Assembly (NCBI GenBank): GCA_021814445.1
Contig: JAKAIF010000001.1
Span: 6,070 to 62,440 of the forward strand
Origin: a bacterium
GTDB taxonomy: Bacteria; Patescibacteriota; Minisyncoccia; UBA6257; JAGOQP01
Direction: 5' to 3'
DNA: 56,371 nt
Below are positions 4,952-41,072 of this stretch, piece after piece. Every line of letters begins with the position of its first letter. Position 1 is the stretch's first letter. A program made the position numbers and the translations under genes. The notes beneath the pieces are model-generated. The model saw nothing but the letters and a program-made list of their open reading frames with translations. It was not told where the DNA came from and did no database searches.

Positions 4952-5050
4952 TGATGCTTGTATGGTGAAAAGAAGAGAGATGCTCTGTATGTATGAGCAT
5001 CTTTTTTATATTTGAGCAGAACCATTTTTTATGGTACCCTCGTACTATAT

Positions 5051-5641
5051 ATGATGGTTCCGAATCACAAAGGTATCAAAGAAAAAACTCCTGTATCCCA
5101 CACCACGTCTCCTCGCGTTCAACGACGGGAGATTTCTTCTGGGGTTATTATTTATCGCCGTGTGAATAACGAGGCGCGATTTTTAGTGTTGTATCACGGA
5201 CGAAATCAGTGGGAAATTCCTCGGGGAAAAATAGAGGCAGAGGAGCGTAGTTTCATGGCGGCATTGCGAGAAACACGCGAAGAAACTGGTTTTACACGCG
5301 CTGATCTGCAATTTGTTGACTATTTTAAGGCGTATGAAAACTGGACGTTTATTAAGAATGGACAAAAAGTTTTCAAGACTATTATTTATTATCTTGCTGA
5401 AACAAAAAAGAAACATCCTCGTATTGAGCCAAGCTTTGAGGGATATGGCTGGTTTACCTATCGGGAAGCACTGCAGATATTTTTGGGTCCCAAAAACAAT
5501 GAAAATAGAAAAGTATTAAAACAAGCGCATGATTTTTTGGGAGCGAAAAATAAAGTCTCTCCGCGTATGCATCCAGCGCCAGCTCCTGCTCATGTTTCTC
5601 GTGCCACACATACTCCTCAAAAACATACCGAGGGGGTATAG
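5051..5641 (+). CDS. Nudix hydrolase
   Basis: Nudix box GKIEAEERSFMAALRETREETGF (Gx5Ex7REUxEExGU). The track ORF begins at TTG 5012; the in-frame ATG at 5051 is preferred. Confidence 0.8.
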   Translation: MMVPNHKGIKEKTPVSHTTSPRVQRREISSGVIIYRRVNNEARFLVLYHGRNQWEIPRGKIEAEERSFMAALRETREETGFTRADLQFVDYFKAYENWTFIKNGQKVFKTIIYYLAETKKKHPRIEPSFEGYGWFTYREALQIFLGPKNNENRKVLKQAHDFLGAKNKVSPRMHPAPAPAHVSRATHTPQKHTEGV

Positions 5642-8012: not shown

Positions 8013-8365
8013 GGGGGCGTACGCTTTGACAGGGGTGCGTTTTAGAAACTTGCATGCCAAGCTGATTGTCTTGTAAACCAATCAAACCAATAATTGCCAA
8101 ACCTATGGCTCTCGCGTTTGCCTAAGAACAAACACGGGTTACCTTTCCTTTTGTGAAAGGCATCGGCTCCTGACTTCTTATAGGGATTCCGCCGGTGTTA
8201 TATATAAGAATCGCCATGATTGATTGGTTTGTAGATCATGGCTAAATATTCAAACCAAACTATTGTTGCCTGTACTCCGTAGCTTTATGCGAAGGGGTAT
8301 CCAACTAAGCGTGTAGACGGTTTTTGAAACTATTCTTGGACGGGAGTTCAATCTCCCCGCCTCCA
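8013..8365 (+). ncRNA. ssrA: tmRNA (SsrA)
   Basis: The 5' end GGGGGCG pairs with the 3' CGCCUCC, including a G3:U wobble, and is followed by discriminator A. There is a T-arm-like gggag-ttcaat-ctccc. A candidate tag frame gcc aaa cct atg gct ctc gcg ttt gcc taa (8096-8125) reads AKPMALAFA. The length of about 353 nt and the position 27 nt after smpB both fit. CCA is not encoded. Confidence 0.85.
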
Positions 8366-8405
8366 CAAATATAAACCCCCGAAAGGGGGATTTATATTTG
8401 TGGAG
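8361..8405 (+). terminator. long stem-loop overlapping the tmRNA 3' end
   Basis: ctccacaaatataaaccccc-gaaa-gggggatttatatttgtggag: 20-bp stem with one bulged A. Confidence 0.6.
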
Positions 8406-9218: not shown

Positions 9219-10301
9219 TTGGATGCACAATACAAGGCAGATGAACGCTACCTCAATCCTCAGTCTATTAATGTTCTTCCTCAAATGAGGAGAACGTTTG
9301 AAAAGATTGATGAACTTGCAGATAGCATCTTTCGGAATGGATTAATTCATCCTGTTACCGTCGCAGAACTCAGTTTAGACGAGACTCGGAAGTATGTTGA
9401 AATTATTAATACGGTCCATGAGTCTCATGTTGTTGTTGAGGATCTTGTTTGTTCGGATGGCTTATATCTTATTCTTGTTTCTGGTGAGCGACGCATGCGC
9501 GCGTATAGATTATTGCATACACGTGCTATTAGTGGCTTTGATTTTATTCGGTCAACCGTTTGCCCTCGGATGAATTTGGAAGATCTTATTGACCTTCAGG
9601 GGAGCGAAAATACAAACGACCCCGTGAAGCCCGAGGAAGAAGCGATCTTTTATCACCGGTATTATAGGTTTCTCCACGAAACAAAAAGTGGTATTACGGT
9701 TGCTGAATTTGCCCGAAAAGTGGGGCGAAGCTCGCAGGTTGTTACCACTGCGTTGCGTTTTGCAAAGCTTCCACAATATATCCAAGATTGTGTGTTCAAT
9801 AGAACACTACAATATGGTATTGCGTGTGAACTTGCGCGCCTCCAAGCTGCGGGTATTGAGGGGGAACTACTAAAGGATTGGTTTATTCGGTCCGCTCTAC
9901 ATACTCAGAATGTTGAAGCATTTCGGACAACGGTCAAAAAATATCTCACTGATCTACACAGTGGACAAACTTCTCTTGTGGATATGTTTGTCACAGAGTC
10001 GGAATCAGAGATGAGAAGAGAACAGCGTCGGAGAAGTATTGAAAAGAATACCTCTGATATGTTCTATGCTTCAAATGCATACTTCCTTCGCCTTCTCTAT
10101 TTGTTTGATCAAAACCTCATAGGCTTGGAAGATTCTCCATTTTCTATGAGTGGTCCCTTGGGTGTTTTTGAAAAACAAATTGAGTTGCTTAAAAAACTCT
10201 TGCCTCATTTGGATGCCCTCCTTAATATCACTGAAGCGCAGGAGGTCATTACTGAATCAGAGCAGCGTATTAAAAAGTTACAGAAACGTATCCATGTATA
10301 A
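9219..10301 (+). CDS. ParB/Srx-fold (ParB-like nuclease domain) protein, orphan
   Basis: 360 aa, TTG start 7 nt after gagagg. N-terminal SINVLPQMRRTF and LILVSGERRMRAY (GERR box), followed by an HTH-like ITVAEFARKVGRSSQVV. Confidence 0.7.
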   Translation: MDAQYKADERYLNPQSINVLPQMRRTFEKIDELADSIFRNGLIHPVTVAELSLDETRKYVEIINTVHESHVVVEDLVCSDGLYLILVSGERRMRAYRLLHTRAISGFDFIRSTVCPRMNLEDLIDLQGSENTNDPVKPEEEAIFYHRYYRFLHETKSGITVAEFARKVGRSSQVVTTALRFAKLPQYIQDCVFNRTLQYGIACELARLQAAGIEGELLKDWFIRSALHTQNVEAFRTTVKKYLTDLHSGQTSLVDMFVTESESEMRREQRRRSIEKNTSDMFYASNAYFLRLLYLFDQNLIGLEDSPFSMSGPLGVFEKQIELLKKLLPHLDALLNITEAQEVITESEQRIKKLQKRIHV

Positions 10302-10331
10302 TTTATTTATTTTTTGTATAAAGTTATTTTT

Positions 10332-10353
10332 AAGCCCGTCTTATCGCGGGCTT
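10332..10353 (+). terminator. stem-loop after the ParB-like gene
   Basis: aagcccg-tcttatcg-cgggctt followed by ttc ttt. Confidence 0.55.
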
Positions 10354-10480
10354 TTCTTTGTGTGCTGTTTTTAATCGTTGTTCTCCTGTGGATATCTATA
10401 CCTTGCTATTTTTATATTTTTGTGTTTAAATACTAATTGCTCACTTACATATTTTTATAAATAAAAAGAAAGGATTATCT

Positions 10481-10762
10481 ATGAGATTCAAGAATATGGA
10501 AGAGATTCTTCCATTTGTTTTAAAAAAATCTTTCAATACCGCCTCGTCACCCTCTGTGGTCTCGGCGATAACCCCTCACGGAATTATAGTTGGTTTTAAG
10601 GACATGTTTCCGTGGAGAGGTGCTGATTTTGATATTGCTATTACCACCGATGAATCTGCAGGAGTTGATTCTCGGCAGTTTATAGACCCTCTTATCTCTG
10701 GAAAACGAGTTGCTCTTTTTCCAGAAAGATCAAGAAGCCCTTTTATTTGGTTTTTGTTGTAG
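10481..10762 (+). CDS. hypothetical protein (weak)
   Basis: 93-aa ORF with aaagg upstream. A gcgcgaaatttcgcg hairpin plus T-run follows at about 10793-10817. No motif recognised. Confidence 0.3.
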   Translation: MRFKNMEEILPFVLKKSFNTASSPSVVSAITPHGIIVGFKDMFPWRGADFDIAITTDESAGVDSRQFIDPLISGKRVALFPERSRSPFIWFLL

Positions 10763-10860
10763 AGGGGGATATCTCTACTCTGTTTCTATTTGAGCGCGAA
10801 ATTTCGCGTTCTTTTTTTATAAAACTTCACATTTTGCCCTTTTTTCGCTATCTTATAAGA

Positions 10861-13800
10861 ATGCTTCGAAACGTTAAATCATTCAATCTCCCTGAGATAG
10901 AGGAAAAAGTGCTTGCACTCTGGAAAGAGCGTGGAATTTTTAAAAAGTCTATCACTCCTGCAAAGGGTAAAAAGGTAAAGCGGTTCAATTTTTGGGAAGG
11001 CCCTCCAACTGCGAATGGACGCCCGGGGATACACCATGTTCTTGCGCGAGTTTTTAAAGATGTTTTTGTTCGCTATAAGACGATGCAAGGCTTTGTGGTA
11101 CCTCGTAAGGCGGGATGGGATACCCATGGACTCCCTGTAGAACTACAAGTTGAAAAACAATTAGAACTTTCTTCTAAAAAAGATATTGAGGCGTATGGTA
11201 TCTCTGCTTTCAATCAAAAGTGCAGAGAATCGGCTGGAGTACATAAGTCTGAGTTTGAAAAATTAACTGAGCGTATTGGATTTTGGTTAGACATGGAGAA
11301 CCCCTATGTGACCTATCATAATAATTATATTGAGTCCTTGTGGTGGATTATTAAACAAATGTCTCTCAAGGGACTTCTCTACGAAGGACATAAGGTGGTG
11401 CCGTGGTGTCCGCGCTGTGGTACTGCGCTCTCCTCTCATGAAATCGCGCAAGGATATAAAACCGTAACTGATAAATCGGTATATATTAAATTCAAAATTC
11501 AGAATTCAAAATTCAAAAGCTCAAATCCGAAACTCAAAATAGGTGAAAATACTTATATTTTATCGTGGACAACGACTCCGTGGACGTTACCGGGGAACGT
11601 GGCTCTCGCAGTTGGGGAACACATTCTATATGATGCAATTCGCGTTGAGGGGAAGTCAGAAGTATATATTCTTGCCTCAGATTTAGTGCGCGCTGTTTTT
11701 CCTCATGAGCGCATTGAAACAGTCCACAAACATATTTTAGGAAAGGATCTTGTGGGCTTTTCATATGAACCATTGTTCCATATCTCAGAATTTAAAAAAT
11801 CAGAGACGGCGTATAAAATATATGCGGCGGATTTTGTGACCACGACCGATGGCACGGGAGTGGTGCATACCGCGGTCATGTATGGAGAAGACGATTATGA
11901 ACTTGGAAAGAAAATAAGACTTCCGCAGTATCATACCGTAGATGAAGCGGGAAAATTTATTGTAGGCGTTCCTGATCTTGCGGGACGTTTTGTAAAAAGT
12001 GGAGAAACAGAAAAAATTATTTTTGAGCATTTGCAAAAACATAATGCGCTTCTCGCGATTGTTCCGTATGAGCATGAATATCCCTATTGTTGGCGCTGTG
12101 GTACCCCATTGTTGTATTACGCACGCACGTCATGGTTTGTGGAGATGACGAAGCTCAAGAAAAAATTACTTGCTTCAAATGAAGAGGTAAATTGGATTCC
12201 GAGTCATATTAAGCAAGGACGTTTCGGTGAATGGTTGAAAGACGTAAAAGATTGGAATTTTTCTCGTGAACGTTATTGGGGTACGCCGCTTCCCGTATGG
12301 CGTTGCTCACAGTGCGCGCATACCCAGGTTATTGGATCTAAAGAAGAGTTGATTGCCACACAACCAAAACATATTACGAATTTTATTCTCATGCGTCATG
12401 GAGGATCGCTTCATAACGTGAAACGTATTACGAATGGGGATGTAAAGAAAAGTCTTCAATACCCACTTACTAAAAAGGGGGAGTTAGAAGTGAAACGTAC
12501 AGCTAAAAAATTAGCTCAAAAAGGTATTGATGTTATTCTCTGTTCTGATTTTTATCGCACGCATCAAACAGCCCAAATCGTTTCAGGTGTTATTGGAACG
12601 AAAATAATTATTGATAAACGATTAAGAGAAATTTCTTTTGGAGAACTTGAAGGGCAGTCAATTGATAGATATAACGCTCTCTTCTCTGACTATGAGGCAA
12701 AATTTATGAAGGCTCCAGAGGGGGGCGAAACTCTTTCCTCTGTGGCTCAACGAATGAATGAATTTACTCAAGATATTTTGAAAACCTATAAAGGTAAAAC
12801 GGTGTTAATAATTAGTCATGAAGATGCCTTGTGGATGCTTGAAGCTGTTCTTTCTGGGCGAAGTCAGGAAGAAAGTATTGCATTAAAGAAACAAGCAGAT
12901 GGTGGTTTTATAAAAACGGCCCAAACTATGTCTCGGGAATTTGTTTCGTTTCCTCGTAATGAACAAGGATTGGGAGATATGCATCGCCCGTATATTGATG
13001 TGATTACTTTTCCATGCGCGCAGTGTTCTGCTCCTATGTATCGGGTGAAGGAGGTTGTTGATGTGTGGTTTGATTCTGGATCTATGCCGCTTGCTCAAAA
13101 TCATTGGCCATTTGAGCAAACTCAAAAATTAAATTCAAAACTACAGAAATTAGAAAACTTTCCAGCGGATTATATTTCTGAAGCGGTGGATCAAACGCGA
13201 GGGTGGTTTTATACCTTACTTGCGGTTGCAACGGCGTTAGATCTCCCTACTCCCTACAAGAATGTTATTTGTCTTGGGCTTATTCATGATAAGAATGGAC
13301 AAAAGATGTCTAAATCAAAAGGAAATATTGTTGATCCGTGGGCTCTGATACAAAAGTACGGAGTGGATTCTATCCGATGGTATTTTTATACCGTAAATGC
13401 GCCAGGGGATGCAAAGAATTTTGATGAAAATGAAGTTGCACAAGCGTTCCGTCGTACGCTTATGGTTATATATAACTCATTTGCATTTTTGAAAATGTAT
13501 GGAGCAGATAAACGAAATCTTGCTTCCGTGCCCGCATCAGCACATATATTAGACAAATGGATTTTAGCGCGTCTTGCTATTCTTACCCGTGATGTTTCTG
13601 CTGCCATGGATGCATATGATATTACGAGAGCAACGAGCGCGATAGAATTATTTATTGATGATCTCTCTCGATGGTATATTCGTCGTTCACGTCGCCGATT
13701 CCAAAAACCAGAGAATAGCAAAGAATTACAAGAGGCTTCTCAGGTGCTTGCCTATACTCTCTTGCAATTTTCGAAGGTGCTCGCTCCCTTCACCCCATTT

Positions 13801-14421
13801 TTTGCTGAAAGTATCTATCAATCACTCAAAAAAGATCATACTTTTGCTAAAAAAGATTCTGTTCATTTAGAATCATTTCCGCTGTATCCCGTGAAGGCGT
13901 CTGATGAGGGTGTGGTTTCGGTTATGTCGTGGGCACGCGATATTGCGAGTGGGGTGCTTGCAAAACGAGCAGAACTACAATTAAAAGTCCGCCAGCCTCT
14001 TGCACGGCTGACGATTCAGGGGAAAAAACCACGCGGATCGTTTGTACAAGATATTATTGATATTATTTGTGATGAGGTAAATGTAAAAGAAATTGTTTTT
14101 TCTGCAGATCTTGCGGGGGGCGAAAAATTTGTTCTTGATACTACTATTACGCCCGAGTTAAAGACAGAAGGACTTTTGAGAGAACTGACTCGCGCAATAC
14201 AAGAGCTGCGACAAGATGCGGGCTATGTGCCAAAAGATACTATTATCTTGGCACTTGAGAGCACCTCTGATATTGAGTCTTTGGTTCGCACTCATGAGGC
14301 GTTTATTAAAAAAGAAGTGGGCGCGCGTGTGCTGACGATTGGAAAGATGGAAAAGTTTGATGTGGAAGTTGACACAAAATTAGATGGAAAACGTTTGTGG
14401 ATGGGAGCAAGAAGGAAATAA
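10861..14421 (+). CDS. ileS: isoleucyl-tRNA synthetase (type 2) carrying an inserted histidine-phosphatase-like domain
   Basis: FWEGPPTANGRPGIHHVLAR (HIGH region), WTTTPWTLPGN, KMSKSKGN and the DMHRPYID...CAQCSAPMYRVKEVVDVWFDSGSMP zinc motif. The track ORF starts at 10747, but that extension crosses a terminator-like hairpin, so ATG 10861 (MLRNVKSFNLPEIEEKVLALW) is preferred. Confidence 0.95.
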   Translation: MLRNVKSFNLPEIEEKVLALWKERGIFKKSITPAKGKKVKRFNFWEGPPTANGRPGIHHVLARVFKDVFVRYKTMQGFVVPRKAGWDTHGLPVELQVEKQLELSSKKDIEAYGISAFNQKCRESAGVHKSEFEKLTERIGFWLDMENPYVTYHNNYIESLWWIIKQMSLKGLLYEGHKVVPWCPRCGTALSSHEIAQGYKTVTDKSVYIKFKIQNSKFKSSNPKLKIGENTYILSWTTTPWTLPGNVALAVGEHILYDAIRVEGKSEVYILASDLVRAVFPHERIETVHKHILGKDLVGFSYEPLFHISEFKKSETAYKIYAADFVTTTDGTGVVHTAVMYGEDDYELGKKIRLPQYHTVDEAGKFIVGVPDLAGRFVKSGETEKIIFEHLQKHNALLAIVPYEHEYPYCWRCGTPLLYYARTSWFVEMTKLKKKLLASNEEVNWIPSHIKQGRFGEWLKDVKDWNFSRERYWGTPLPVWRCSQCAHTQVIGSKEELIATQPKHITNFILMRHGGSLHNVKRITNGDVKKSLQYPLTKKGELEVKRTAKKLAQKGIDVILCSDFYRTHQTAQIVSGVIGTKIIIDKRLREISFGELEGQSIDRYNALFSDYEAKFMKAPEGGETLSSVAQRMNEFTQDILKTYKGKTVLIISHEDALWMLEAVLSGRSQEESIALKKQADGGFIKTAQTMSREFVSFPRNEQGLGDMHRPYIDVITFPCAQCSAPMYRVKEVVDVWFDSGSMPLAQNHWPFEQTQKLNSKLQKLENFPADYISEAVDQTRGWFYTLLAVATALDLPTPYKNVICLGLIHDKNGQKMSKSKGNIVDPWALIQKYGVDSIRWYFYTVNAPGDAKNFDENEVAQAFRRTLMVIYNSFAFLKMYGADKRNLASVPASAHILDKWILARLAILTRDVSAAMDAYDITRATSAIELFIDDLSRWYIRRSRRRFQKPENSKELQEASQVLAYTLLQFSKVLAPFTPFFAESIYQSLKKDHTFAKKDSVHLESFPLYPVKASDEGVVSVMSWARDIASGVLAKRAELQLKVRQPLARLTIQGKKPRGSFVQDIIDIICDEVNVKEIVFSADLAGGEKFVLDTTITPELKTEGLLRELTRAIQELRQDAGYVPKDTIILALESTSDIESLVRTHEAFIKKEVGARVLTIGKMEKFDVEVDTKLDGKRLWMGARRK

Positions 14422-19426: not shown

Positions 19427-20947
19427 ATGGCAGACAATGTATTGTATTTAGGAAAAACAAATTTTCGTAATCAAGAACGTACGTTTGGTATTAAACTCGC
19501 CGACCGTCGTCAGCATACGTATATTATTGGTAAGTCAGGAACGGGGAAAAGTACCTTACTTTTGAACATGGTGATTTCCGATGTGAAGGCAGGACATGGG
19601 GTGTGCTTTGTGGATCCGCATGGAGAAACCGCAGAAGAAATTTTACACTTTATTCCTGAGGAGCGTGTGGATGATGTTATTTATATTAACCCCGCAGATA
19701 TTAATTTTCCTGTTGCCTTTAATCCGTTAGAGCGGGTTGATTTTGATATGCGTCATTTGGTTGCTTCGGGACTCATGTCGGTATTTAAGAAAATCTGGCC
19801 TGATGCGTGGTCTGCACGTATGGAATATATTTTAAATAACACCCTGTTGGCGCTTTTGGAATACCCTGGCTCAACGTTGTTGGGGGTTATGAAGATGTAT
19901 TCTGATAAAGAATTTCGTCGTAAGATTGTGAATGACCTGCAAGACCCGAGCGTGCGATCGTTTTGGGTTGATGAGTTTGCGAAATATACACAGAAATTGG
20001 AAACTGAGGGAGTCGCGGCTATTCAAAATAAAATTGGACAATTTGTTACCAATCCGCTTATTCGCAGTATTATTGGACAAGTAAAATCTTCTTTTGATTT
20101 TCGCCAAGCGATGGATGATGGCAAAATTATTATTGTAAATTTGTCTAAGGGAAAGATTGGAGAAGACAACTCTAACTTATTGGGAGCGATGCTTATTACA
20201 AAATTACAGTTAGCCGCCATGTCTCGGGTGGATATTCCCATGTCGCAACGTAAAGATTTCTTTTTGTATGTGGATGAGTTCCAAAACTTTGCAACTGAAT
20301 CATTTGCCACTATTTTATCTGAGGCGCGGAAGTATCGTCTTTCGCTTATTGTGGCGCACCAATATATTGCGCAATTGGAACAAGAAAAAAACACGAAAGT
20401 TCGCGATGCTATTTTTGGTAACGTGGGAACTATGATTGCGTTTCGTGTGGGAGCTGATGATGCTGAGTTTTTGGAAAAAGAATTTTTTGAAGAATTTTTG
20501 GCGAGCGATTTTGTGAACCTGCCGAATGCCCATATTTACGCACGTATTATGGTGGATGGTGTTTCCTCTCGTCCTTTTTCTGCAAAGACGCTTCCGCCGC
20601 CGCCCTTGCCTGTGCCATCTCTTTTTGATACCATCCTCCAGTCTTCACGGTCTAAGTATTCTATTGCGCGAGAGATTGTTGATGAGAAGATTCGCGCTGA
20701 CTATTATGGCGCTGAGGGAGATAAGGCGCATGATATGGTTGCTCGTCGCGACGAACGTTCCTTGCACGAAGTGCTTAAAAAGGAATTACCCGCTACAATG
20801 CAGAGAAAACACGAACATGAGCACACCCCCTCTACTCAAAAAGAAAGAAAGCCTATTGAAGAACGCATGAACGTGGATGCATTGAAAGATATTATTCGAA
20901 CCTCGTTGCGTCAAAAACCAAATGAAGAAGGGGAGAAAAAAGAATAA
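19427..20947 (+). CDS. TraD/VirD4/HerA-like P-loop ATPase (type IV coupling-protein-like)
   Basis: 506 aa. Walker A IIGKSGTGKSTLLLNM, VCFVDPHGE, Walker B FFLYVDEFQNFAT, LSLIVAHQYIAQL. This architecture resembles FtsK/HerA-superfamily coupling ATPases but lacks a TM segment. Confidence 0.7.
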   Translation: MADNVLYLGKTNFRNQERTFGIKLADRRQHTYIIGKSGTGKSTLLLNMVISDVKAGHGVCFVDPHGETAEEILHFIPEERVDDVIYINPADINFPVAFNPLERVDFDMRHLVASGLMSVFKKIWPDAWSARMEYILNNTLLALLEYPGSTLLGVMKMYSDKEFRRKIVNDLQDPSVRSFWVDEFAKYTQKLETEGVAAIQNKIGQFVTNPLIRSIIGQVKSSFDFRQAMDDGKIIIVNLSKGKIGEDNSNLLGAMLITKLQLAAMSRVDIPMSQRKDFFLYVDEFQNFATESFATILSEARKYRLSLIVAHQYIAQLEQEKNTKVRDAIFGNVGTMIAFRVGADDAEFLEKEFFEEFLASDFVNLPNAHIYARIMVDGVSSRPFSAKTLPPPPLPVPSLFDTILQSSRSKYSIAREIVDEKIRADYYGAEGDKAHDMVARRDERSLHEVLKKELPATMQRKHEHEHTPSTQKERKPIEERMNVDALKDIIRTSLRQKPNEEGEKKE

Positions 20948-37488: not shown

Positions 37489-38190
37489 TTATTTTATAAA
37501 TGTGTATTTTTTCCTTTTTTCTTTTTTTACGTGTTGTATTAATTCTTCTGCAAGCTTTCTCTTCCTTAATAATGTTGGAAGATTCTTTTTATAATAAATC
37601 CACCTAAGAAGTTGGATTGATTCGTGTTTACCGAATTTAATCCCCCAAATAGGAACGCAGTTTTTATTTTTTGGTTTTGCGCAAACAACAGCTCCACTTA
37701 TTGGTGATAATTCTTTTATTTTCTTGTGTAGCCAGAGGATGTGTTCTTTGCTCGCAGATATAAATCTAACAAATACACGATAATTTGTGTATACTCTTCC
37801 TTTATATGTCTCGCGTTTATCAATGTAAGTCTGGATATTTCCATCGCCATCCAAGTGTCCACGCAAAAAATCTTTAAAGAATCTGTTTGGAATTTCTATC
37901 GCTCCGATGGTGTATGTTTTTGCTGGGAACAACCCTATTTTTAAAAGCCAATTGTAGAACTGAACATTTCCAAACTGAACTCGGTACCCCCTGTCATTTT
38001 CAGTTGAACCTATTTTATTAGTAAGATTTAAACAGTATTTAAATGTTTCTAGGAGTTGAGGATCGGATGACCTCATATTAATATGTCTTCCGTCTTTTGA
38101 TAAGTTTCCATCGGTCACTAAAAGACCGACGATGTATGCGAGTTGTGGCGACCATACAAAATTCCTTGTGGGTAATTTTGTTCTTGCCAT
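37489..38190 (-). mobile_element. free-standing LAGLIDADG homing endonuclease (double-motif)
   Basis: Two dodecapeptide motifs, LAYIVGLLVTDGNLSKDG and FLRGHLDGDGNI. The track ORF (to 38229) overlaps the tRNA 3' end; ATG 38190 (MARTKLPTRNF) is preferred. Confidence 0.85.
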
Positions 38191-38202
38191 AATATTATTC
38201 TG

Positions 38203-38286
38203 TGCCCGAGGCCGGACTCGAACCGGCAAGGTCTTGCGACCATAACATTTTGAGTGTTACGTGGTTACCAATTTCACCACCCGGGC
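38203..38286 (-). tRNA. tRNA-Leu (anticodon CAA), class II with long variable arm
   Basis: The minus strand reads GCCCGGG-TG-GTGAAATTGGTAACCAC-G-TAACA-CTCAAAA-TGTTA-TGGTCGCAAGACCTT-GCCGG-TTCGAGT-CCGGC-CTCGGGC-A. The cloverleaf folds by eye. CCA is not encoded. Confidence 0.9.
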
Positions 38287-38429: not shown

Positions 38430-39206
38430 ATGGCTCGTGTTATTGCCGTTACTAATCAAAAAGGAGGAGTAGGAAAAACGACCACCTCGGTTAATTTGGC
38501 TGCTTATTTAGCGTCTATGGGGCGACGGGTTTTACTCATTGATTTTGATCCACAAGCAAATGCATCATCGGGCTTAGGAGTCCCGACTCATTTAATTACT
38601 GAAAGCATATATCACGTGTTGATGGGACAGATGCCCCATGATCAAGTGGTGCGTCGCACAACCCTTCCCAATCTGCATATTATTCCCGCGAATCAAGATT
38701 TATCTGGGGCGGCAGTTGAGTTGATGCAAGTTCCCGATCGTGAATCAATGTTAAAGAATGTGGTGAATCGCTTACGTCATCACTATCACTATATCATTAT
38801 TGATTTGCCGCCGAGTTTAAGCTTGCTTACTATTAATGGACTTGTAGCGGCAGATGAAGTGCTCATTCCTATTCAGGCAGAATATTACAGCTTAGAAGGA
38901 CTCGGACAATTATTAGGCACGATTGATTTGATAAATAAAAATTTAAATGCTCGCGTGAAGGTGTGTGGTGCTTTGTTAACCATGTACAATAAGCGAGAGA
39001 CGCTCAGTAGGGAAGTTGCAAAGGAAGTGCGGCGGCATTTTCCGTATCATGTGTTTGAATCAGAAATCCCGCGCGCCATCGCGCTTGCTGAGGCACCGAG
39101 TTTTGCAAAACCGGTAGTCTTATTTGATCCGCATTCTTCGGGTGCTCGCGCGTATGAATTATTGGCACGTGAGGTGATTGCGCAGGAACCGCAAGCCACA
39201 ATGTAA
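38430..39206 (+). CDS. parA: chromosome partitioning ATPase ParA/Soj
   Basis: ARVIAVTNQKGGVGKTTTSVNLAAYLA deviant Walker A, IIIDLPPSL, and further ParA-like sequence to the C-terminus. Confidence 0.92.
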   Translation: MARVIAVTNQKGGVGKTTTSVNLAAYLASMGRRVLLIDFDPQANASSGLGVPTHLITESIYHVLMGQMPHDQVVRRTTLPNLHIIPANQDLSGAAVELMQVPDRESMLKNVVNRLRHHYHYIIIDLPPSLSLLTINGLVAADEVLIPIQAEYYSLEGLGQLLGTIDLINKNLNARVKVCGALLTMYNKRETLSREVAKEVRRHFPYHVFESEIPRAIALAEAPSFAKPVVLFDPHSSGARAYELLAREVIAQEPQATM

Positions 39207-39284
39207 TTGTGGCTAATATCAAACTACATATATCAAACTATAAACAAAGCAGATAGATAGACTTCGGAAATATTCATAAGATGC

Positions 39285-39316
39285 CCATTCGCCAATTCGC
39301 GCGAATTGGCGAATGG
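39285..39316. repeat. family 2 palindrome, copy 2
   Basis: ccattcgccaattcgcgcgaattggcgaatgg followed by ttgg, as in copy 3. Confidence 0.9.
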
Positions 39317-39357
39317 TTGGGGACAATATATAATTTTATTTTTTTATCTATAAAAAT

Positions 39358-39645
39358 ATGATTATACATACAAAACGCTGGGTTCAAATATTTAAGTTAT
39401 TTGCAAATGTAAATCGTGTAAAGATTATTATATTATTGCAACAAAAAGGGTCTCCGTTGAATGTGACTGATATTTCTGATGATCTTAATATTTCTCTCAA
39501 ATCCACCTCTAAACATTTGATTATGTTGGATCGGCTTGATGTCATAAATGGAGAGGGGAAGTCTGGGCATGTATTTTATATGTTAAATCCAAATATGCCC
39601 GCCGATATTAAGCAAGCGATATCCTTATTTATAAAGCCAAAGTAA
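39358..39645 (+). CDS. ArsR/SmtB-like winged-helix transcriptional regulator
   Basis: 95 aa. LFANVNRVKIIILLQQKGSPLNVTDISDDLNISLKSTSKHLIMLDRLDVI fits the ArsR HTH pattern. Confidence 0.6.
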   Translation: MIIHTKRWVQIFKLFANVNRVKIIILLQQKGSPLNVTDISDDLNISLKSTSKHLIMLDRLDVINGEGKSGHVFYMLNPNMPADIKQAISLFIKPK

Positions 39646-39652
39646 TATTTAT

Positions 39653-39682
39653 CATTCGCCAATTCGCGCGAATTGGCGAATG
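39653..39682. repeat. family 2 palindrome, copy 3
   Basis: cattcgccaattcgcgcgaattggcgaatg followed by gttgg. Confidence 0.9.
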
Positions 39683-39788
39683 GTTGGTTTGCGGATACTT
39701 ATGGATATTAGTGGATATTATATGTATATGATCTGTGTGTTGATATTATAATTTGGATATTGGAGCGTGGTGCTTTATACTATACCCT

Positions 39789-41072
39789 ATGGGATTGGAA
39801 TCATTAATACCAAATAAGAACAATCAACAACCGCAACAAAATGGCGGTTTTATTCGTGATGTCACGCGAGATGACATTGATGAATTAGATATTGAAGAAA
39901 CACGCTATACCGTGCGCCGCGAACGAGATGATTTGGGTGTATTGAGTTCTCTGCTTGCGGGAACTTCTCATCCCACACGAGAACCCTCTCCGTTTCAACA
40001 AACGCAGTCACCCTATGCGGCGCCACACTATCCAGCGTACAATGAACCACACACCACACACCACACACCACGTGCATATCAAGAACCACCTGTACGTGAG
40101 ACGTATCGTGAAACAGAATCTTTTGATCAACCTGTACGTGAAGAGTGGTCCGAAACACAAAGACCACCGATTCATTCACAACCTACATCTTCACCGTCTG
40201 CGATGGTACGAGAATCATTTGTGAGTCCCAAACAAAAAACCGAACATGAGATTCCCATGTTAGCGGGACCTATTTTTCAAGTGGAGGTGGGGAAGATTCA
40301 AGATAATCCCTATCAACCTCGCAAAGAATATGATGCCACTGCGCTTGATGAGCTCGCGGCGTCCATTCGTGAATTTGGTGTTATGCAGCCATTGGTGGTA
40401 ACGCGTATGAATGAGGAAACCGAAGATGGTCTTCGTACTACGTATCAATTAATCGCGGGGCATCGCCGCTTGATGGCGTCAAAGAAAGTGGGACTCAAAA
40501 CAGTCCCGGTGGTTATTCGGAGTGCTCTCAAACGTGGTGATGCGCTTGAGATGGCTATTGTAGAAAATATTCAGCGACAAGATTTAAACGTAGTAGAGAC
40601 CGCTCGCGCATACGCGCGACTCTCTGATGAATTTGGACTGACGCAACGAGAGATTGCGGCGCGATTGGGGAAGAGTAGGGAATCTATTGCGAATACCTTG
40701 CGTTTGCTTTCACTGCCCACACATATGCAAGATGCTGTTTCCGCGGGAAACATAAATGAAAGTCATGCGCGCATTTTGATGCAGATTCAAGATCCGATAC
40801 AACAACAAAAAATGTTTGATCAAATTGTTCGCGAGGGACTCAGTGTGCGTGATGTAAAACGAGTGTTGTCTCATGCAACGCCTCATGCGCATACCACACA
40901 TCAATCCGTCAATCCTGCTATGAAATCGTTAGAGCAAGATATTTCTGATGTGGTGGGTGCTCCCGTACATATTGAACTCTCAGATAAAGGAGGAAAAATT
41001 GTGATTCATTTTTATTCACCTGAAGAAGTGCAGGGGATTGCGCAAAGAATTAGGAAGGAACAGCAGTACTGA
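39789..41072 (+). CDS. parB: chromosome partitioning protein ParB/Spo0J with long low-complexity N-terminal spacer
   Basis: Starts MGLESLIPNK. ParB boxes include LIAGHRRLMASKKVGL and VPVVIR, and there is an HTH LTQREIAARLGKSRESIANTLRLL. About 170 aa of Pro/Glu/Thr/His-rich sequence precede the ParB domain. The track start TTG 39753 is less likely. Confidence 0.9.
   Translation: MGLESLIPNKNNQQPQQNGGFIRDVTRDDIDELDIEETRYTVRRERDDLGVLSSLLAGTSHPTREPSPFQQTQSPYAAPHYPAYNEPHTTHHTPRAYQEPPVRETYRETESFDQPVREEWSETQRPPIHSQPTSSPSAMVRESFVSPKQKTEHEIPMLAGPIFQVEVGKIQDNPYQPRKEYDATALDELAASIREFGVMQPLVVTRMNEETEDGLRTTYQLIAGHRRLMASKKVGLKTVPVVIRSALKRGDALEMAIVENIQRQDLNVVETARAYARLSDEFGLTQREIAARLGKSRESIANTLRLLSLPTHMQDAVSAGNINESHARILMQIQDPIQQQKMFDQIVREGLSVRDVKRVLSHATPHAHTTHQSVNPAMKSLEQDISDVVGAPVHIELSDKGGKIVIHFYSPEEVQGIAQRIRKEQQY

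What the first reader, a model, noticed from the sequence alone, without database searches (positions are those of the whole stretch)
12370..12975. Complete histidine-phosphatase (PGAM-family) domain inserted in-frame inside IleRS
Type 2 IleRS normally has only about 10-20 residues between the ...WRCSQCAHTQVIGSKEEL element and DMHRPYID...VWFDSGSMP. Here about 200 aa are inserted, colinear with branch-1 histidine phosphatases (GpmB/CobC-like). The matching motifs are LMRHGGSLHN (RHG catalytic His), PLTKKGELE, CSDFYRTHQTAQIV (second Arg), LREISFGELEGQ (Glu), PEGGETL and LIISHEDAL (second His). All catalytic positions appear intact and the reading frame is uninterrupted. I am not aware of a phosphatase domain fused inside an aminoacyl-tRNA synthetase. 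It could act on a nucleotide by-product such as Ap4A or pppGpp-like species, or on a tRNA end or a phosphorylated substrate. It could also be a regulatory module.
Basis: partly seen in the sequence, partly recalled or inferred. Interest (0 to 1): 0.72.

Follow-up and report, generated by a model that had tools for sequence, protein, structure and literature searches.

The report
Phosphatase domain nested inside IleRS
An essential translation enzyme (isoleucyl-tRNA synthetase) of a tiny candidate-phyla bacterium carries a complete, apparently active phosphatase inside one of its surface loops; in related species the same phosphatase is a separate gene right next to the synthetase gene, so the two probably work together in a way nobody has described.

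Summary
Window 12352-12975 (208 codons) is an in-frame, complete branch-1 histidine phosphatase domain (Pfam His_Phos_1, E 7.8e-34). It sits in the zinc-binding CP3 subdomain of an otherwise normal type-2 IleRS (10861-14421). It is not a chimera: the 120 best homologues and 74 of the 80 best loci from one-genome-per-species contigs (Parcubacteria group) have the same architecture.

The catalytic residues R512, H513, R566 and H653 are invariant and E590 is E/D. The insert as a whole is only 38% identical across the family.

New context:
- In related genomes the phosphatase is a free 187-198 aa gene packed between argS and an insert-less ileS.
- In fused genomes that slot is empty (argS-ileS[insert]).
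- Other lineages carry the domain at three other IleRS loops, in two to four copies, all with intact catalytic residues.
- A separate iPGM in a fused genome, and scores far below every curated cut-off, argue against a glycolytic mutase, CobC, PspA or SixA.

Most likely it is an active PhoE-like phosphomonoesterase that works with IleRS. Its substrate is unknown. No paper describing it was found. I rate it a new variant of a known kind, with high interest.

The parts
10861..14421 (+). ileS gene: type-2 isoleucyl-tRNA synthetase with a nested phosphatase, 1186 aa plus stop. The ORF is open from TTG 10747, but the homologues start at ATG 10861.
   Evidence: TIGR00392 881 bits vs cut-off 621; Foldseek 8C8W E 6e-90; 7D5C TM 0.88
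11026..11037 (+). Class I signature motif in its non-canonical form, GIHH (G56-H59).
   Evidence: G56, H58, H59 invariant in the family; the G/AXHH form is described in PMC10485003
10861..12351 (+). IleRS N-terminal part: first half of the Rossmann fold, CP core, CP1 editing domain, CP2, and the first half of CP3 ending in ...VIGSKEEL.
   Evidence: domain names from PMC7191050
12304..12315 (+). First CxxC of the CP3 zinc knuckle (C482-S-Q-C485). It aligns with T. thermophilus C461/C464.
12352..12975 (+). Inserted histidine phosphatase domain with its two short linkers (aa 498-705). The Pfam match is aa 509-671, i.e. 12385-12873.
12394..12402 (+). RHG motif: R512, the nucleophile H513, and G514.
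   Evidence: (R and H 120/120, G 114/120)
12556..12558 (+). R566, the second phosphate-binding arginine.
   Evidence: (120/120)
12628..12630 (+). E590, the predicted proton donor (aligns with the Glu of REI in PhoE).
   Evidence: (117 E, 3 D)
12817..12819 (+). H653, the second catalytic histidine.
   Evidence: (120/120)
13015..13026 (+). Second CxxC of the CP3 zinc knuckle (C719-A-Q-C722). It aligns with T. thermophilus C502/C504.
12976..14418 (+). IleRS C-terminal part: the rest of CP3 (DMHRPYID...), second half of the Rossmann fold, KMSKS (13303-13317), stem-contact fold, anticodon-binding domain and the DUF5915 C-terminal domains.

Best explanation
What is shown. Window 12352-12975 encodes a complete, well-folding branch-1 histidine phosphatase of the short PhoE/GpgP/PspA/CobC type. 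It is nested between the two CxxC halves of the zinc-binding CP3 subdomain of a full, otherwise normal type-2 IleRS. It corresponds in position to a small phosphatase gene (called hpd here) that in related Parcubacteria lies in a tightly packed argS-hpd-ileS operon. In this lineage the free gene is gone and the domain sits inside IleRS. Catalytic residues are kept under strong purifying selection in every copy.

What is inferred about chemistry. The domain works by the standard family mechanism. His513 attacks a terminal phosphate held by R512, R566 and H653. E590 protonates the leaving group. The phospho-histidine intermediate is then hydrolysed.

What is inferred about biology. The phosphatase is a functional partner of IleRS rather than a passenger (about 0.65). 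My committed guess for the target is a nucleotide-type phosphoester or terminal phosphoanhydride made or met at the aminoacylation site, such as a nucleotide by-product (about 0.3). A phosphorylated tRNA end is next (about 0.2), then a phospho-protein such as the synthetase itself (about 0.1). The substrate is not established by anything done here.
For: Domain identity and integrity:
- Pfam E 7.8e-34.
- Closest solved sequence is PhoE, 1EBB/1H2E, E 7e-16.
- The insert-only AF2 model has pLDDT 90.3. Foldseek gives TM 0.70-0.77 to GpgP, PhoE, PspA, A. aeolicus HFP and CobC.
- The full-length model has pLDDT 88.8 and pTM 0.80, with the insert and both linkers at 88-96.

Selection:
- R512, H513, R566, E623 and H653 are 120/120 and E590 is 117 E / 3 D, while the insert is 38% identical on average against 58% for the IleRS body. 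Insert length stays within 201-219 aa.

Not an artefact:
- All 120 best homologues carry PF00133 plus PF00300.
- 74 of the 80 best loci from one-genome-per-species contigs have the insert at the same site.

Coupling to ileS:
- The free relatives lie between argS and an insert-less ileS, with gaps of -7 to 24 nt to ileS: L001, L007, L008, L009.
- L004 and L006 also show argS-hpd.
- All 6 free loci among the 80 species loci follow argS and adjoin ileS.
- Fused genome L011 has argS directly followed by ileS[insert], with no free gene.
- 29 of 54 fused loci with enough upstream sequence keep argS upstream.

Repeated fusion:
- The domain occurs at four different IleRS loops (s1, s1b, s2, s3), in tandem and in 2-4 copies. 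Every complete aligned copy keeps the catalytic Arg-His, second Arg, Glu and second His, with single substitutions only at the neighbouring Gly, Asn or GES positions. The s2+s3 form is on six contigs of up to 1.06 Mb.

Charge:
- Free forms are strongly basic: median +9.4 net charges per 100 aa (n=204), against +4.3 for related ArgRS, +2.0 for the IleRS body and +2.5 for the fused insert. Over the same 196 columns the free form is +16.3 and the fused form +4.4.
Against: - No experiment or structure here shows any substrate.
- The nearest characterised relatives are all small-molecule metabolic phosphatases with no link to translation.
- CP3 is a peripheral, variable subdomain (PMC7191050) and is named only once in the yeast IleRS-tRNA paper, as one of the connective peptides, so its position alone does not point at the tRNA or the active site.
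- I could not read model coordinates, so the distance from His513 to the synthetic or editing site is unknown.
- Gene order in streamlined genomes can be conserved without shared function, and adjacency itself may make insertion into ileS mechanically easy.
- One free relative sits away from ileS (L005) and one is acidic (P0142, pI 5.2).
- The ArgRS-phosphatase fusion seems to be a single case.
- The window itself has no argS within 56 kb.
Confidence: 0.62

Rival explanations
1. Passenger enzyme. The domain is an ordinary housekeeping small-molecule phosphatase (sugar phosphate, cofactor precursor or nucleotide salvage) with no functional tie to IleRS. It rode in the highly expressed argS-ileS operon. 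Because it lay immediately upstream, it was repeatedly recombined into tolerant IleRS loops during genome streamlining.
For: - All close structural and sequence neighbours are metabolic phosphatases.
- CP3 is variable and peripheral.
- The site-2 loop is the only low-confidence stretch of the model, i.e. a permissive loop.
- Several copies per protein would simply raise dosage.
- The ArgRS fusion looks like a one-off read-through of neighbouring genes.
- CPR genomes are tightly packed.
Against: - 80 of 80 species-level loci have the gene in or next to ileS, across lineages whose ArgRS is only 41-49% identical.
- At least four independent internal insertion sites have been kept with intact catalysis.
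- The marked basic charge of the free form, lost on fusion, is not expected for a plain metabolic enzyme.
Confidence: 0.27
2. tRNA-end healing. The phosphatase removes a 2'- or 3'-terminal phosphate (or pyrophosphate) from tRNA so that IleRS can charge it. The free form binds tRNA by its own positive charge. The fused form borrows IleRS's tRNA binding. This is a sub-case of the functional-partner reading.
For: - The free form has charge like the RNA-binding neighbours SmpB and IF3, and this is lost in the fused form.
- The extra positive charge is concentrated in the post-RHG loop, the cap and the C-terminal part, around the pocket.
- Exclusive association with tRNA-handling enzymes.
- The one isolated free copy lies 3.5 kb from RtcB and TGT, on the other strand.
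Against: - To my knowledge no branch-1 histidine phosphatase is known to act on RNA ends.
- CP3 is named only once in the yeast IleRS-tRNA paper, in a list of connective peptides.
- Two to four copies on one IleRS make little sense for this job.
- It is unclear why only IleRS would need it.
- One free member is acidic.
Confidence: 0.2
3. The insert is the cell's cofactor-dependent phosphoglycerate mutase (glycolysis), fused to IleRS for economy.
For: The best NCBIfam match of the insert is the short archaeal dPGM model (NF038349, 92 bits).
Against: - The score is far below cut-off: 92 vs 225; pgm_1 33 vs 82. The free relatives fall short as well.
- dPGM structures align only over the N-terminal half by sequence (3PGM, aa 10-106).
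- The position after the catalytic Glu is I-S-F-G, not the R-H-Y-G of dPGM (my knowledge of E. coli GpmA).
- A fused-type genome (L011) encodes a separate iPGM (PF01676 + PF06415) about 6 kb away.
Confidence: 0.03
4. Non-catalytic role. The domain is a structural, tRNA-binding or allosteric sensor module (for example binding a phospho-metabolite to tune IleRS), and the active-site residues are kept only for ligand binding.
For: The linkers are confidently modelled, which suggests a fixed orientation on CP3. Yeast TFIIIC tau55 carries a histidine phosphatase domain that is apparently not needed for its host complex's function (PMC10781861).
Against: The nucleophile, both arginines, the second histidine and the acid are invariant (E590 as E/D) across sequences only about 35-40% identical. 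This holds for the free gene and for all complete extra copies. That is the signature of retained catalysis.
Confidence: 0.05
5. Assembly chimera or mis-joined reads created the apparent insertion.
For: None found.
Against: - The same architecture is found in 120/120 best homologues from NCBI, JGI, ENA and Logan and in 74 species-representative genomes, including a complete chromosome, CP179887.1.
- The identical protein is on 4 contigs.
- There is no break in composition.
Confidence: 0.01

Closest known systems
PhoE (YhfR) of Geobacillus stearothermophilus, broad-specificity branch-1 histidine phosphatase (PDB 1EBB, 1H2E)
   Same: Best solved sequence match (E 7e-16, colinear over about 157 aa). 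Same RHG, R, E and H catalytic set, similar size and a short cap. Foldseek TM 0.75.
   Different: PhoE is a free-standing cytosolic enzyme with no link to a synthetase. Identity is only about 28-33%. The N-x-Y motif before RHG and the conserved PLW after the catalytic His are specific to the Parcubacteria group.
Short small-molecule histidine phosphatases: GpgP Rv2419c (4PZ9), PspA (4IJ5), Aquifex aeolicus HFP for riboflavin synthesis (9MMH; PMC12051542), CobC (6NRU, 6E4B)
   Same: Same fold and size (TM 0.69-0.77) and the same catalytic residues.
   Different: Each has a defined metabolic substrate. The insert misses the curated cut-off of every such family (CobC 83 vs 163, PspA 65 vs 350). 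None of them is embedded in another enzyme.
Type-2 IleRS (T. thermophilus 1ILE; P. megaterium IleRS2 8C8U-8C8W; yeast 7D5C, 8WND)
   Same: Full colinearity outside the insert. Shared features are the editing domain, KMSKS, the zinc-binding CP3 as in T. thermophilus, the DUF5915 C-terminus, and the non-canonical GXHH signature motif known from some IleRS2.
   Different: No described IleRS has an enzyme domain in CP3; about 10 residues occupy that place. Two recent IleRS evolution papers do not mention such an insert.
IleRS with an N-acetyltransferase domain (NCBIfam NF040702, ileS_w_GNAT)
   Same: A precedent for an IleRS that carries a second enzyme domain (it is listed).
   Different: Different domain (GNAT). 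The window protein scores 305 vs a cut-off of 1999, so it is not a member. I did not examine where the GNAT domain sits.
Other histidine phosphatase fusions: bifunctional RNase H/acid phosphatase (NF005567), mycobacterial MutT1 Nudix + histidine phosphatase (NF052459), yeast TFIIIC tau55
   Same: A branch-1 histidine phosphatase domain joined to a nucleic-acid or nucleotide enzyme. MutT1 is named an 8-oxo-(d)GTP phosphatase (family name), and from my own knowledge its phosphatase domain removes the terminal phosphate of 8-oxo-(d)GDP, so a nucleotide anhydride substrate has precedent. Tau55 belongs to tRNA gene transcription.
   Different: Those are end-to-end fusions, not nested insertions. 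Scores are below cut-off (90 vs 326; 28 vs 475). The partner enzymes are different.

Membership tests
Histidine phosphatase superfamily, branch 1 (Pfam PF00300) | Profile match above the curated gathering score | tested here: met
   117.5 bits vs 21.7, E 7.8e-34, profile positions 2-165 of 194
Histidine phosphatase superfamily, branch 1 (Pfam PF00300) | Catalytic core: RHG with nucleophilic His, second Arg, second His, acidic proton donor | tested here: met
   R512-H513-G514, R566, E590 and H653 are present, aligned to those of PhoE, and invariant in 120 relatives apart from E590 (117 E, 3 D) and G514 (114/120)
Histidine phosphatase superfamily, branch 1 (Pfam PF00300) | Alpha/beta phosphoglycerate-mutase-like fold | tested here: met
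   AF2 pLDDT 90.3, pTM 0.87; Foldseek TM 0.70-0.77 to GpgP, PhoE, PspA and CobC
Histidine phosphatase superfamily, branch 1 (Pfam PF00300) | Phosphatase or mutase activity through a phospho-histidine intermediate | not testable with these tools
   Needs an enzyme assay with the H513A control
Cofactor-dependent phosphoglycerate mutase (GpmA; archaeal dPGM NF038349; TIGR01258) | Score above the equivalog/subfamily cut-off, and dPGM substrate-binding residues | tested here: not met
   NF038349 92 vs 225; TIGR01258 33 vs 82. Yeast dPGM aligns over aa 10-106 only. A separate iPGM is present in a fused genome.
Alpha-ribazole phosphatase CobC (TIGR03162, NF011580) | Score above the equivalog cut-off | tested here: not met
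   83 vs 163; 61 vs 250; free relatives 95-99 vs 163
Phosphoserine phosphatase PspA (NF045917), GpmB (NF002901), SixA (TIGR00249) | Score above the equivalog cut-off | tested here: not met
   65 vs 350; 78 vs 261; 32 vs 74.5
Isoleucyl-tRNA synthetase (TIGR00392 equivalog), type 2 | Equivalog score; signature motif and KMSKS; CP1 editing domain; type-2 C-terminus | tested here: met
   881 bits vs 621. GIHH at aa 56-59 and KMSKS at aa 815-819. The T-rich WTTTPWTLPGN motif and the editing-domain match to 1WK8. DUF5915. Foldseek matches 8C8W, 7D5C and 1ILE.
Isoleucyl-tRNA synthetase (TIGR00392 equivalog), type 2 | Isoleucine activation and tRNA-Ile charging | not testable with these tools
   Needs aminoacylation assays. 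No second ileS was seen in the 56-kb window.
Mupirocin-resistance IleRS MupA/MupB (NF000257/NF000258) | Score above the exception-model cut-off | tested here: not met
   764 and 798 vs 1900
IleRS with GNAT domain (NF040702) | Score above the cut-off; presence of a GNAT domain | tested here: not met
   305 vs 1999; no GNAT Pfam hit

The most novel reading that the evidence does not exclude
Parcubacteria possess a so far unknown phosphatase step that is built into tRNA charging. It would be an IleRS-coupled enzyme that restores chargeable tRNA (removing a terminal 2'/3'-phosphate or pyrophosphate) or reverses a phosphorylation that blocks the synthetase. It would be important enough to be kept next to or inside ileS in hundreds of species and to be inserted independently at several loops.
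Probability: 0.25. Interest if true: 0.9.

Novelty: new variant of a known kind. Interest (0 to 1): 0.72.

Why it matters
Aminoacyl-tRNA synthetases often gain editing, tRNA-binding or signalling domains. A complete, catalytically conserved phosphatase nested in the catalytic body of one has not been described in any paper I could find.

The case comes with an unusually clean evolutionary series:
- free gene between argS and ileS;
- domain inside CP3;
- domain in other loops;
- several copies on one IleRS.

This makes it a natural experiment in how one enzyme becomes embedded in another. It also gives strong guilt-by-association evidence that a phosphatase activity is tied to isoleucine charging in a very large uncultured bacterial group.

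If the substrate turns out to be tRNA, the synthetase itself or a reaction by-product, that would add a new accessory step to translation. If it is an unrelated metabolite, it is still a clear example of gene-order-driven domain nesting in streamlined genomes. Either outcome can be tested directly with recombinant proteins.

Tried and rejected
- **Assembly chimera.** Rejected because the architecture recurs.
- **Glycolytic dPGM.** Rejected.
- **A second, independent aaRS fusion as support.** P0245 is ArgRS with a C-terminal His_Phos. A search with its junction region found no other such protein. The joint reads ...APEHM|FNNSYFF..., as expected for loss of a stop between neighbouring genes. I therefore treat it as a one-off and give it little weight.
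- **Genome scan with a mixed free/fused alignment (A2).** It failed for lack of a conserved stretch. A3 worked.
- **Defence-system link.** PADLOC gave nothing for the insert and only a marginal, probably chance hit for P0142.
- **Regulatory leader.** Rfam found no T-box or other element upstream of ileS.
- **Recent horizontal origin.** There is no GC break. GC3 of the insert is lower than that of the body (0.255 vs 0.351), but the insert is ancient in the clade.
- **Geometry.** I wanted the distance from His513 to the synthetic and editing sites, and to know whether sites s1, s1b, s2 and s3 cluster in space. The tools return no coordinates, so this could not be done.
- **Literature.** Nine searches and two IleRS evolution papers gave no description of the fusion.
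- **NJ tree of IleRS bodies.** It is too star-like and has no support values. I use it only as a hint that free and fused states are interleaved.
Full report
**1. The observation**

The ORF at 10747-14421 (+) encodes an isoleucyl-tRNA synthetase. Homologues, and an identical database protein of 1186 aa, start at ATG 10861.

NCBIfam's ileS equivalog scores 881 bits against a cut-off of 621, but in two stretches. Pfam places His_Phos_1 (PF00300) at aa 509-671 with E 7.8e-34.

Three insert-less references set the borders:
- T. thermophilus IleRS (1ILE) aligns to aa 2-503 and 706-1030. Its own residues 482 and 489 flank the gap.
- P. megaterium IleRS2 aligns up to aa 497 and from aa 706 (its own residues 474 and 487).
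- An insert-less Parcubacteria IleRS maps by tblastn to window 10888-12351 and 12976-14358.

The insert is therefore window 12352-12975, 208 codons replacing about 9-13 residues. Base composition shows no break.

**2. Where it sits in IleRS**

The flanks are CSQC (aa 482-485) and CAQC (aa 719-722). They align with C461/C464 and C502/C504 of T. thermophilus IleRS, its second zinc site. All four cysteines are invariant or nearly so in the family.

This is the CP3 subdomain. It is a peripheral connective peptide between CP2 and the second half of the Rossmann fold. Its topology differs among IleRSs, and it binds zinc in T. thermophilus (PMC7191050).

The rest of the enzyme is complete:
- signature motif, here in the non-canonical GIHH form known from some IleRS2 (PMC10485003);
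- editing domain;
- KMSKS;
- anticodon-binding domain;
- type-2 C-terminus.

A full-length AlphaFold2 model built on a 54-sequence alignment has mean pLDDT 88.8 and pTM 0.80. The insert and both linkers score 88-96. The model matches type-2 and eukaryote-like IleRS structures: 8C8W at E 6e-90, and TM 0.88 to 7D5C.

**3. What the insert is**

By sequence, the closest solved protein is PhoE of G. stearothermophilus (E 7e-16). Next come the A. aeolicus riboflavin-pathway phosphatase, PspA and CobC.

An insert-only model (pLDDT 90.3) matches GpgP Rv2419c, PhoE, PspA, HFP and CobC at TM 0.70-0.77.

No curated NCBIfam equivalog is reached:

| Family | Score | Cut-off |
|---|---|---|
| dPGM_arch | 92 | 225 |
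| CobC | 83 | 163 |
| GpmB | 78 | 261 |
| PspA | 65 | 350 |
| SixA | 32 | 74.5 |

The free-standing relatives also fall short of every cut-off. The insert is a member of the superfamily, of the short phosphatase type, but of no characterised family.

**4. It is conserved and under selection**

All 120 best homologues (50-82% identical; NCBI, JGI, ENA and Logan; named Paceibacterota, Minisyncoccia, Wolfebacteria, Jorgensenbacteria) carry both domains.

Across them R512, H513, R566, E623 and H653 are invariant, and E590 is E in 117 and D in 3. Mean identity of the insert is only 38%, against 58% for the IleRS body. Insert length stays within 201-219 aa.

A scan of one-genome-per-species contigs found at least 491 relatives. 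Of the best 80 loci, 74 have the domain in ileS at this same site. They come from Campbell-, Sung-, Nomura-, Wolfe-, Jorgensen-, Nealson-, Kaiser- and Colwellbacteria and others, and include a complete 689-kb chromosome. Wolfebacteria (fused form) and Staskawiczbacteria (free form) both belong to the Parcubacteria group.

An assembly artefact is excluded.

**5. The key context: a relocated operon gene**

A search of 1.84 billion representative proteins with the insert alone gave 1301 hits at E <= 1e-10. The best 150 are a mix of fused IleRSs and free proteins of 170-220 aa at 32-42% identity.

The free genes sit in a conserved triad, argS-hpd-ileS, where ileS is insert-less (931-957 aa):
- L001, L007, L008 and L009, with gaps from hpd to ileS of 1, 4, -7 and 24 nt.
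- L004 has argS-hpd with ileS convergent. L006 has argS-hpd overlapping.
- All six free loci among the 80 species loci follow argS and adjoin ileS.
- One exception was seen, L005.

In a fused genome (L011, a 729-kb scaffold) the order is smpB | argS-ileS[insert], with no free gene between them. Of 54 fused loci with enough upstream sequence, 29 keep argS upstream.

So the insert corresponds in position to the free gene and has moved into ileS. In the present window argS is not within 56 kb, and there is no second His_Phos.

**6. Other insertion sites and extra copies**

Motif landmarks and domain mapping show the same domain family at other places in IleRS:
- **s1b:** between D-L-H-K-H and D-x-W-F-E-S-G.
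- **s2:** between WFESG and FPAEF/DQTRGWF. In the window protein this is the only segment with pLDDT below 50.
- **s3:** about 80 residues after KMSKS.

| Protein | Architecture |
|---|---|
| P0229 | s2 alone |
| P0173, P0222 | s2 + s3, with an intact, uninterrupted CP3 |
| P0182 | s1 + s3 |
| P0181 | two copies at CP3 (s1/s1b) |
| P0144 | s1b + s2 + s3 |
| P0197 | four copies (short contig; treat with care) |

The s2+s3 form occurs in six proteins of one 90% cluster, on contigs of up to 1.06 Mb. Every complete aligned copy keeps R-H-(G/A)-N-R-E-E-H apart from single substitutions at the Asn or GES positions. Copies are 35-45% identical to each other and to free forms, so they are old.

These multi-copy forms live in higher-GC genomes (0.48-0.53) with SLH proteins, RelA/SpoT and purA nearby, and without argS next door.

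An ArgRS with a C-terminal copy (P0245) exists but appears unique. Its junction looks like loss of a stop between neighbours.

**7. Clues to function**

- A fused-type genome encodes a separate cofactor-independent PGM. Together with the failed family tests, this removes the glycolytic mutase reading.
- Free forms are unusually basic: median +9.4 net charges per 100 aa, with 77% above +5 (n=204). Related ArgRS is +4.3, the IleRS body +2.0 and the fused insert +2.5.
- Over the same 196 profile columns the free form carries +16.3 and the fused form +4.4. The surplus lies mostly in the loop after RHG, the cap and the C-terminal part.
- This charge pattern fits a protein that must find a polyanion (tRNA, ribosome or a polyphosphate-like ligand) on its own, and no longer needs to once tethered. 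It is not universal: P0142 has pI 5.2.
- No defence-system or RNA-leader signal was found.

**8. Interpretation**

*Shown:*
- A real, complete, conserved phosphatase domain is nested in CP3 of a complete IleRS.
- It corresponds in position to a free gene that is almost always next to ileS.
- Insertion has recurred at several loops, with catalysis retained.

*Inferred:*
- The domain is catalytically active by the standard phospho-histidine mechanism.
- It works with IleRS (about 0.65). The main rival is a passenger metabolic phosphatase that was nested because it lay next door (about 0.27).
- Within the partnership reading I rank the targets as follows:
  - a nucleotide-type by-product or contaminant of the aminoacylation site (about 0.3). 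Family precedent for nucleotide-like substrates comes from CobC and the MutT1 phosphatase domain, and several diverged copies make sense for small substrates;
  - a phosphorylated tRNA end (about 0.2);
  - a phosphoprotein, such as a modified KMSKS loop (about 0.1).
- None of these targets is tested.

**9. Novelty**

Nine literature searches and two recent papers on IleRS evolution gave no mention of this architecture. Databases label the proteins only as 'isoleucine--tRNA ligase' or 'class I tRNA ligase family protein'.

NCBIfam lists an IleRS with a GNAT domain, so a second enzyme on IleRS has precedent. I therefore rate this a new variant of a known kind, namely an aaRS with an accessory enzyme domain. 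It is unusual in three respects: it is nested in the catalytic body, it recurs at several sites, and it can be traced to an adjacent operon gene.

Noticed in passing
window 11026-11037: The IleRS signature motif is GIHH, the non-canonical G/AXHH form (first and third positions swapped). In bacterial IleRS2 this form gives mupirocin hyper-resistance (PMC10485003). G56, H58 and H59 are invariant across the fused family.
   Followed up: partly
window 8013-8368 (+): A tmRNA gene (Rfam 126 bits; ARAGORN tag peptide AKPMALAFA) lies about 2.5 kb upstream of ileS. In related loci smpB lies just upstream of argS-ileS.
   Followed up: no
window 37489-38286 (-): An ORF with a LAGLIDADG-like domain (246 aa, 37489-38229) overlaps by about 27 nt the 3' part of a tRNA-Leu(CAA) gene (38202-38286) on the same strand. 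This may be a homing-endonuclease remnant or an intron-related arrangement.
   Followed up: no
window 10302-10860: There is a roughly 560-nt gap between the ParB-like gene and the likely ileS start. It contains a 93-aa ORF (10481-10762), and the ileS frame is open from TTG 10747. No Rfam element (for example a T-box) was found there.
   Followed up: partly
window 9219-10301 and 38430-41072: There are two ParB-type genes. One is a divergent ParB-like protein directly upstream of ileS (weak ParB_N, HTH_ParB). The other is a canonical parA-parB pair 28 kb away.
   Followed up: no
window 5012-5641; L011 353-826: A NUDIX hydrolase gene lies a few kb upstream of ileS in the window, and also upstream of argS-ileS in L011. 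Mycobacterial MutT1 combines Nudix and histidine phosphatase domains, so a Nudix-phosphatase pairing may be worth testing.
   Followed up: no
window 12352-12975 vs rest of ileS: GC3 of the insert is 0.255 against 0.351 for the IleRS body (GC 0.373 vs 0.416). This is a modest difference in codon composition within one gene.
   Followed up: no
window 19427-20947: A type IV secretion coupling-protein-like ATPase (T4SS-DNA_transf, TrwB_AAD_bind) sits among housekeeping genes.
   Followed up: no
L004 2682-5609 (-): An insert-less ileS next to argS-hpd is split into two ORFs (412 and 554 aa) with a 24-nt gap, at the PHC-WRC zinc motif after the editing domain. It is either a true split gene or a frameshift.
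   Followed up: partly
L003 6001-8070: An ArgRS with a C-terminal histidine phosphatase domain (689 aa, P0245), with junction ...APEHM|FNNSYFFLRHGE. No second example was found, so it is probably a read-through fusion of the neighbouring argS and hpd genes.
   Followed up: yes
L010 6001-10260; L092 5001-9407; L093 1932-6191: IleRS genes of 1419-1468 aa carry two phosphatase domains (sites s2+s3, two copies at CP3, or s1+s3). They lie in genomes of GC 0.48-0.53 with SLH-domain proteins, a long RelA/SpoT, purA and DAHP synthase. The lineage looks different from typical Parcubacteria; its taxonomy was not resolved.
   Followed up: partly
L008 9716-10567: bAvd and reverse-transcriptase genes (a diversity-generating retroelement) lie just downstream of the argS-hpd-ileS operon.
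   Followed up: no
L005 348-2719: The one free phosphatase gene found away from ileS lies 2.3-3.5 kb from RtcB (RNA 3'-phosphate ligase) and TGT genes on the opposite strand.
   Followed up: no
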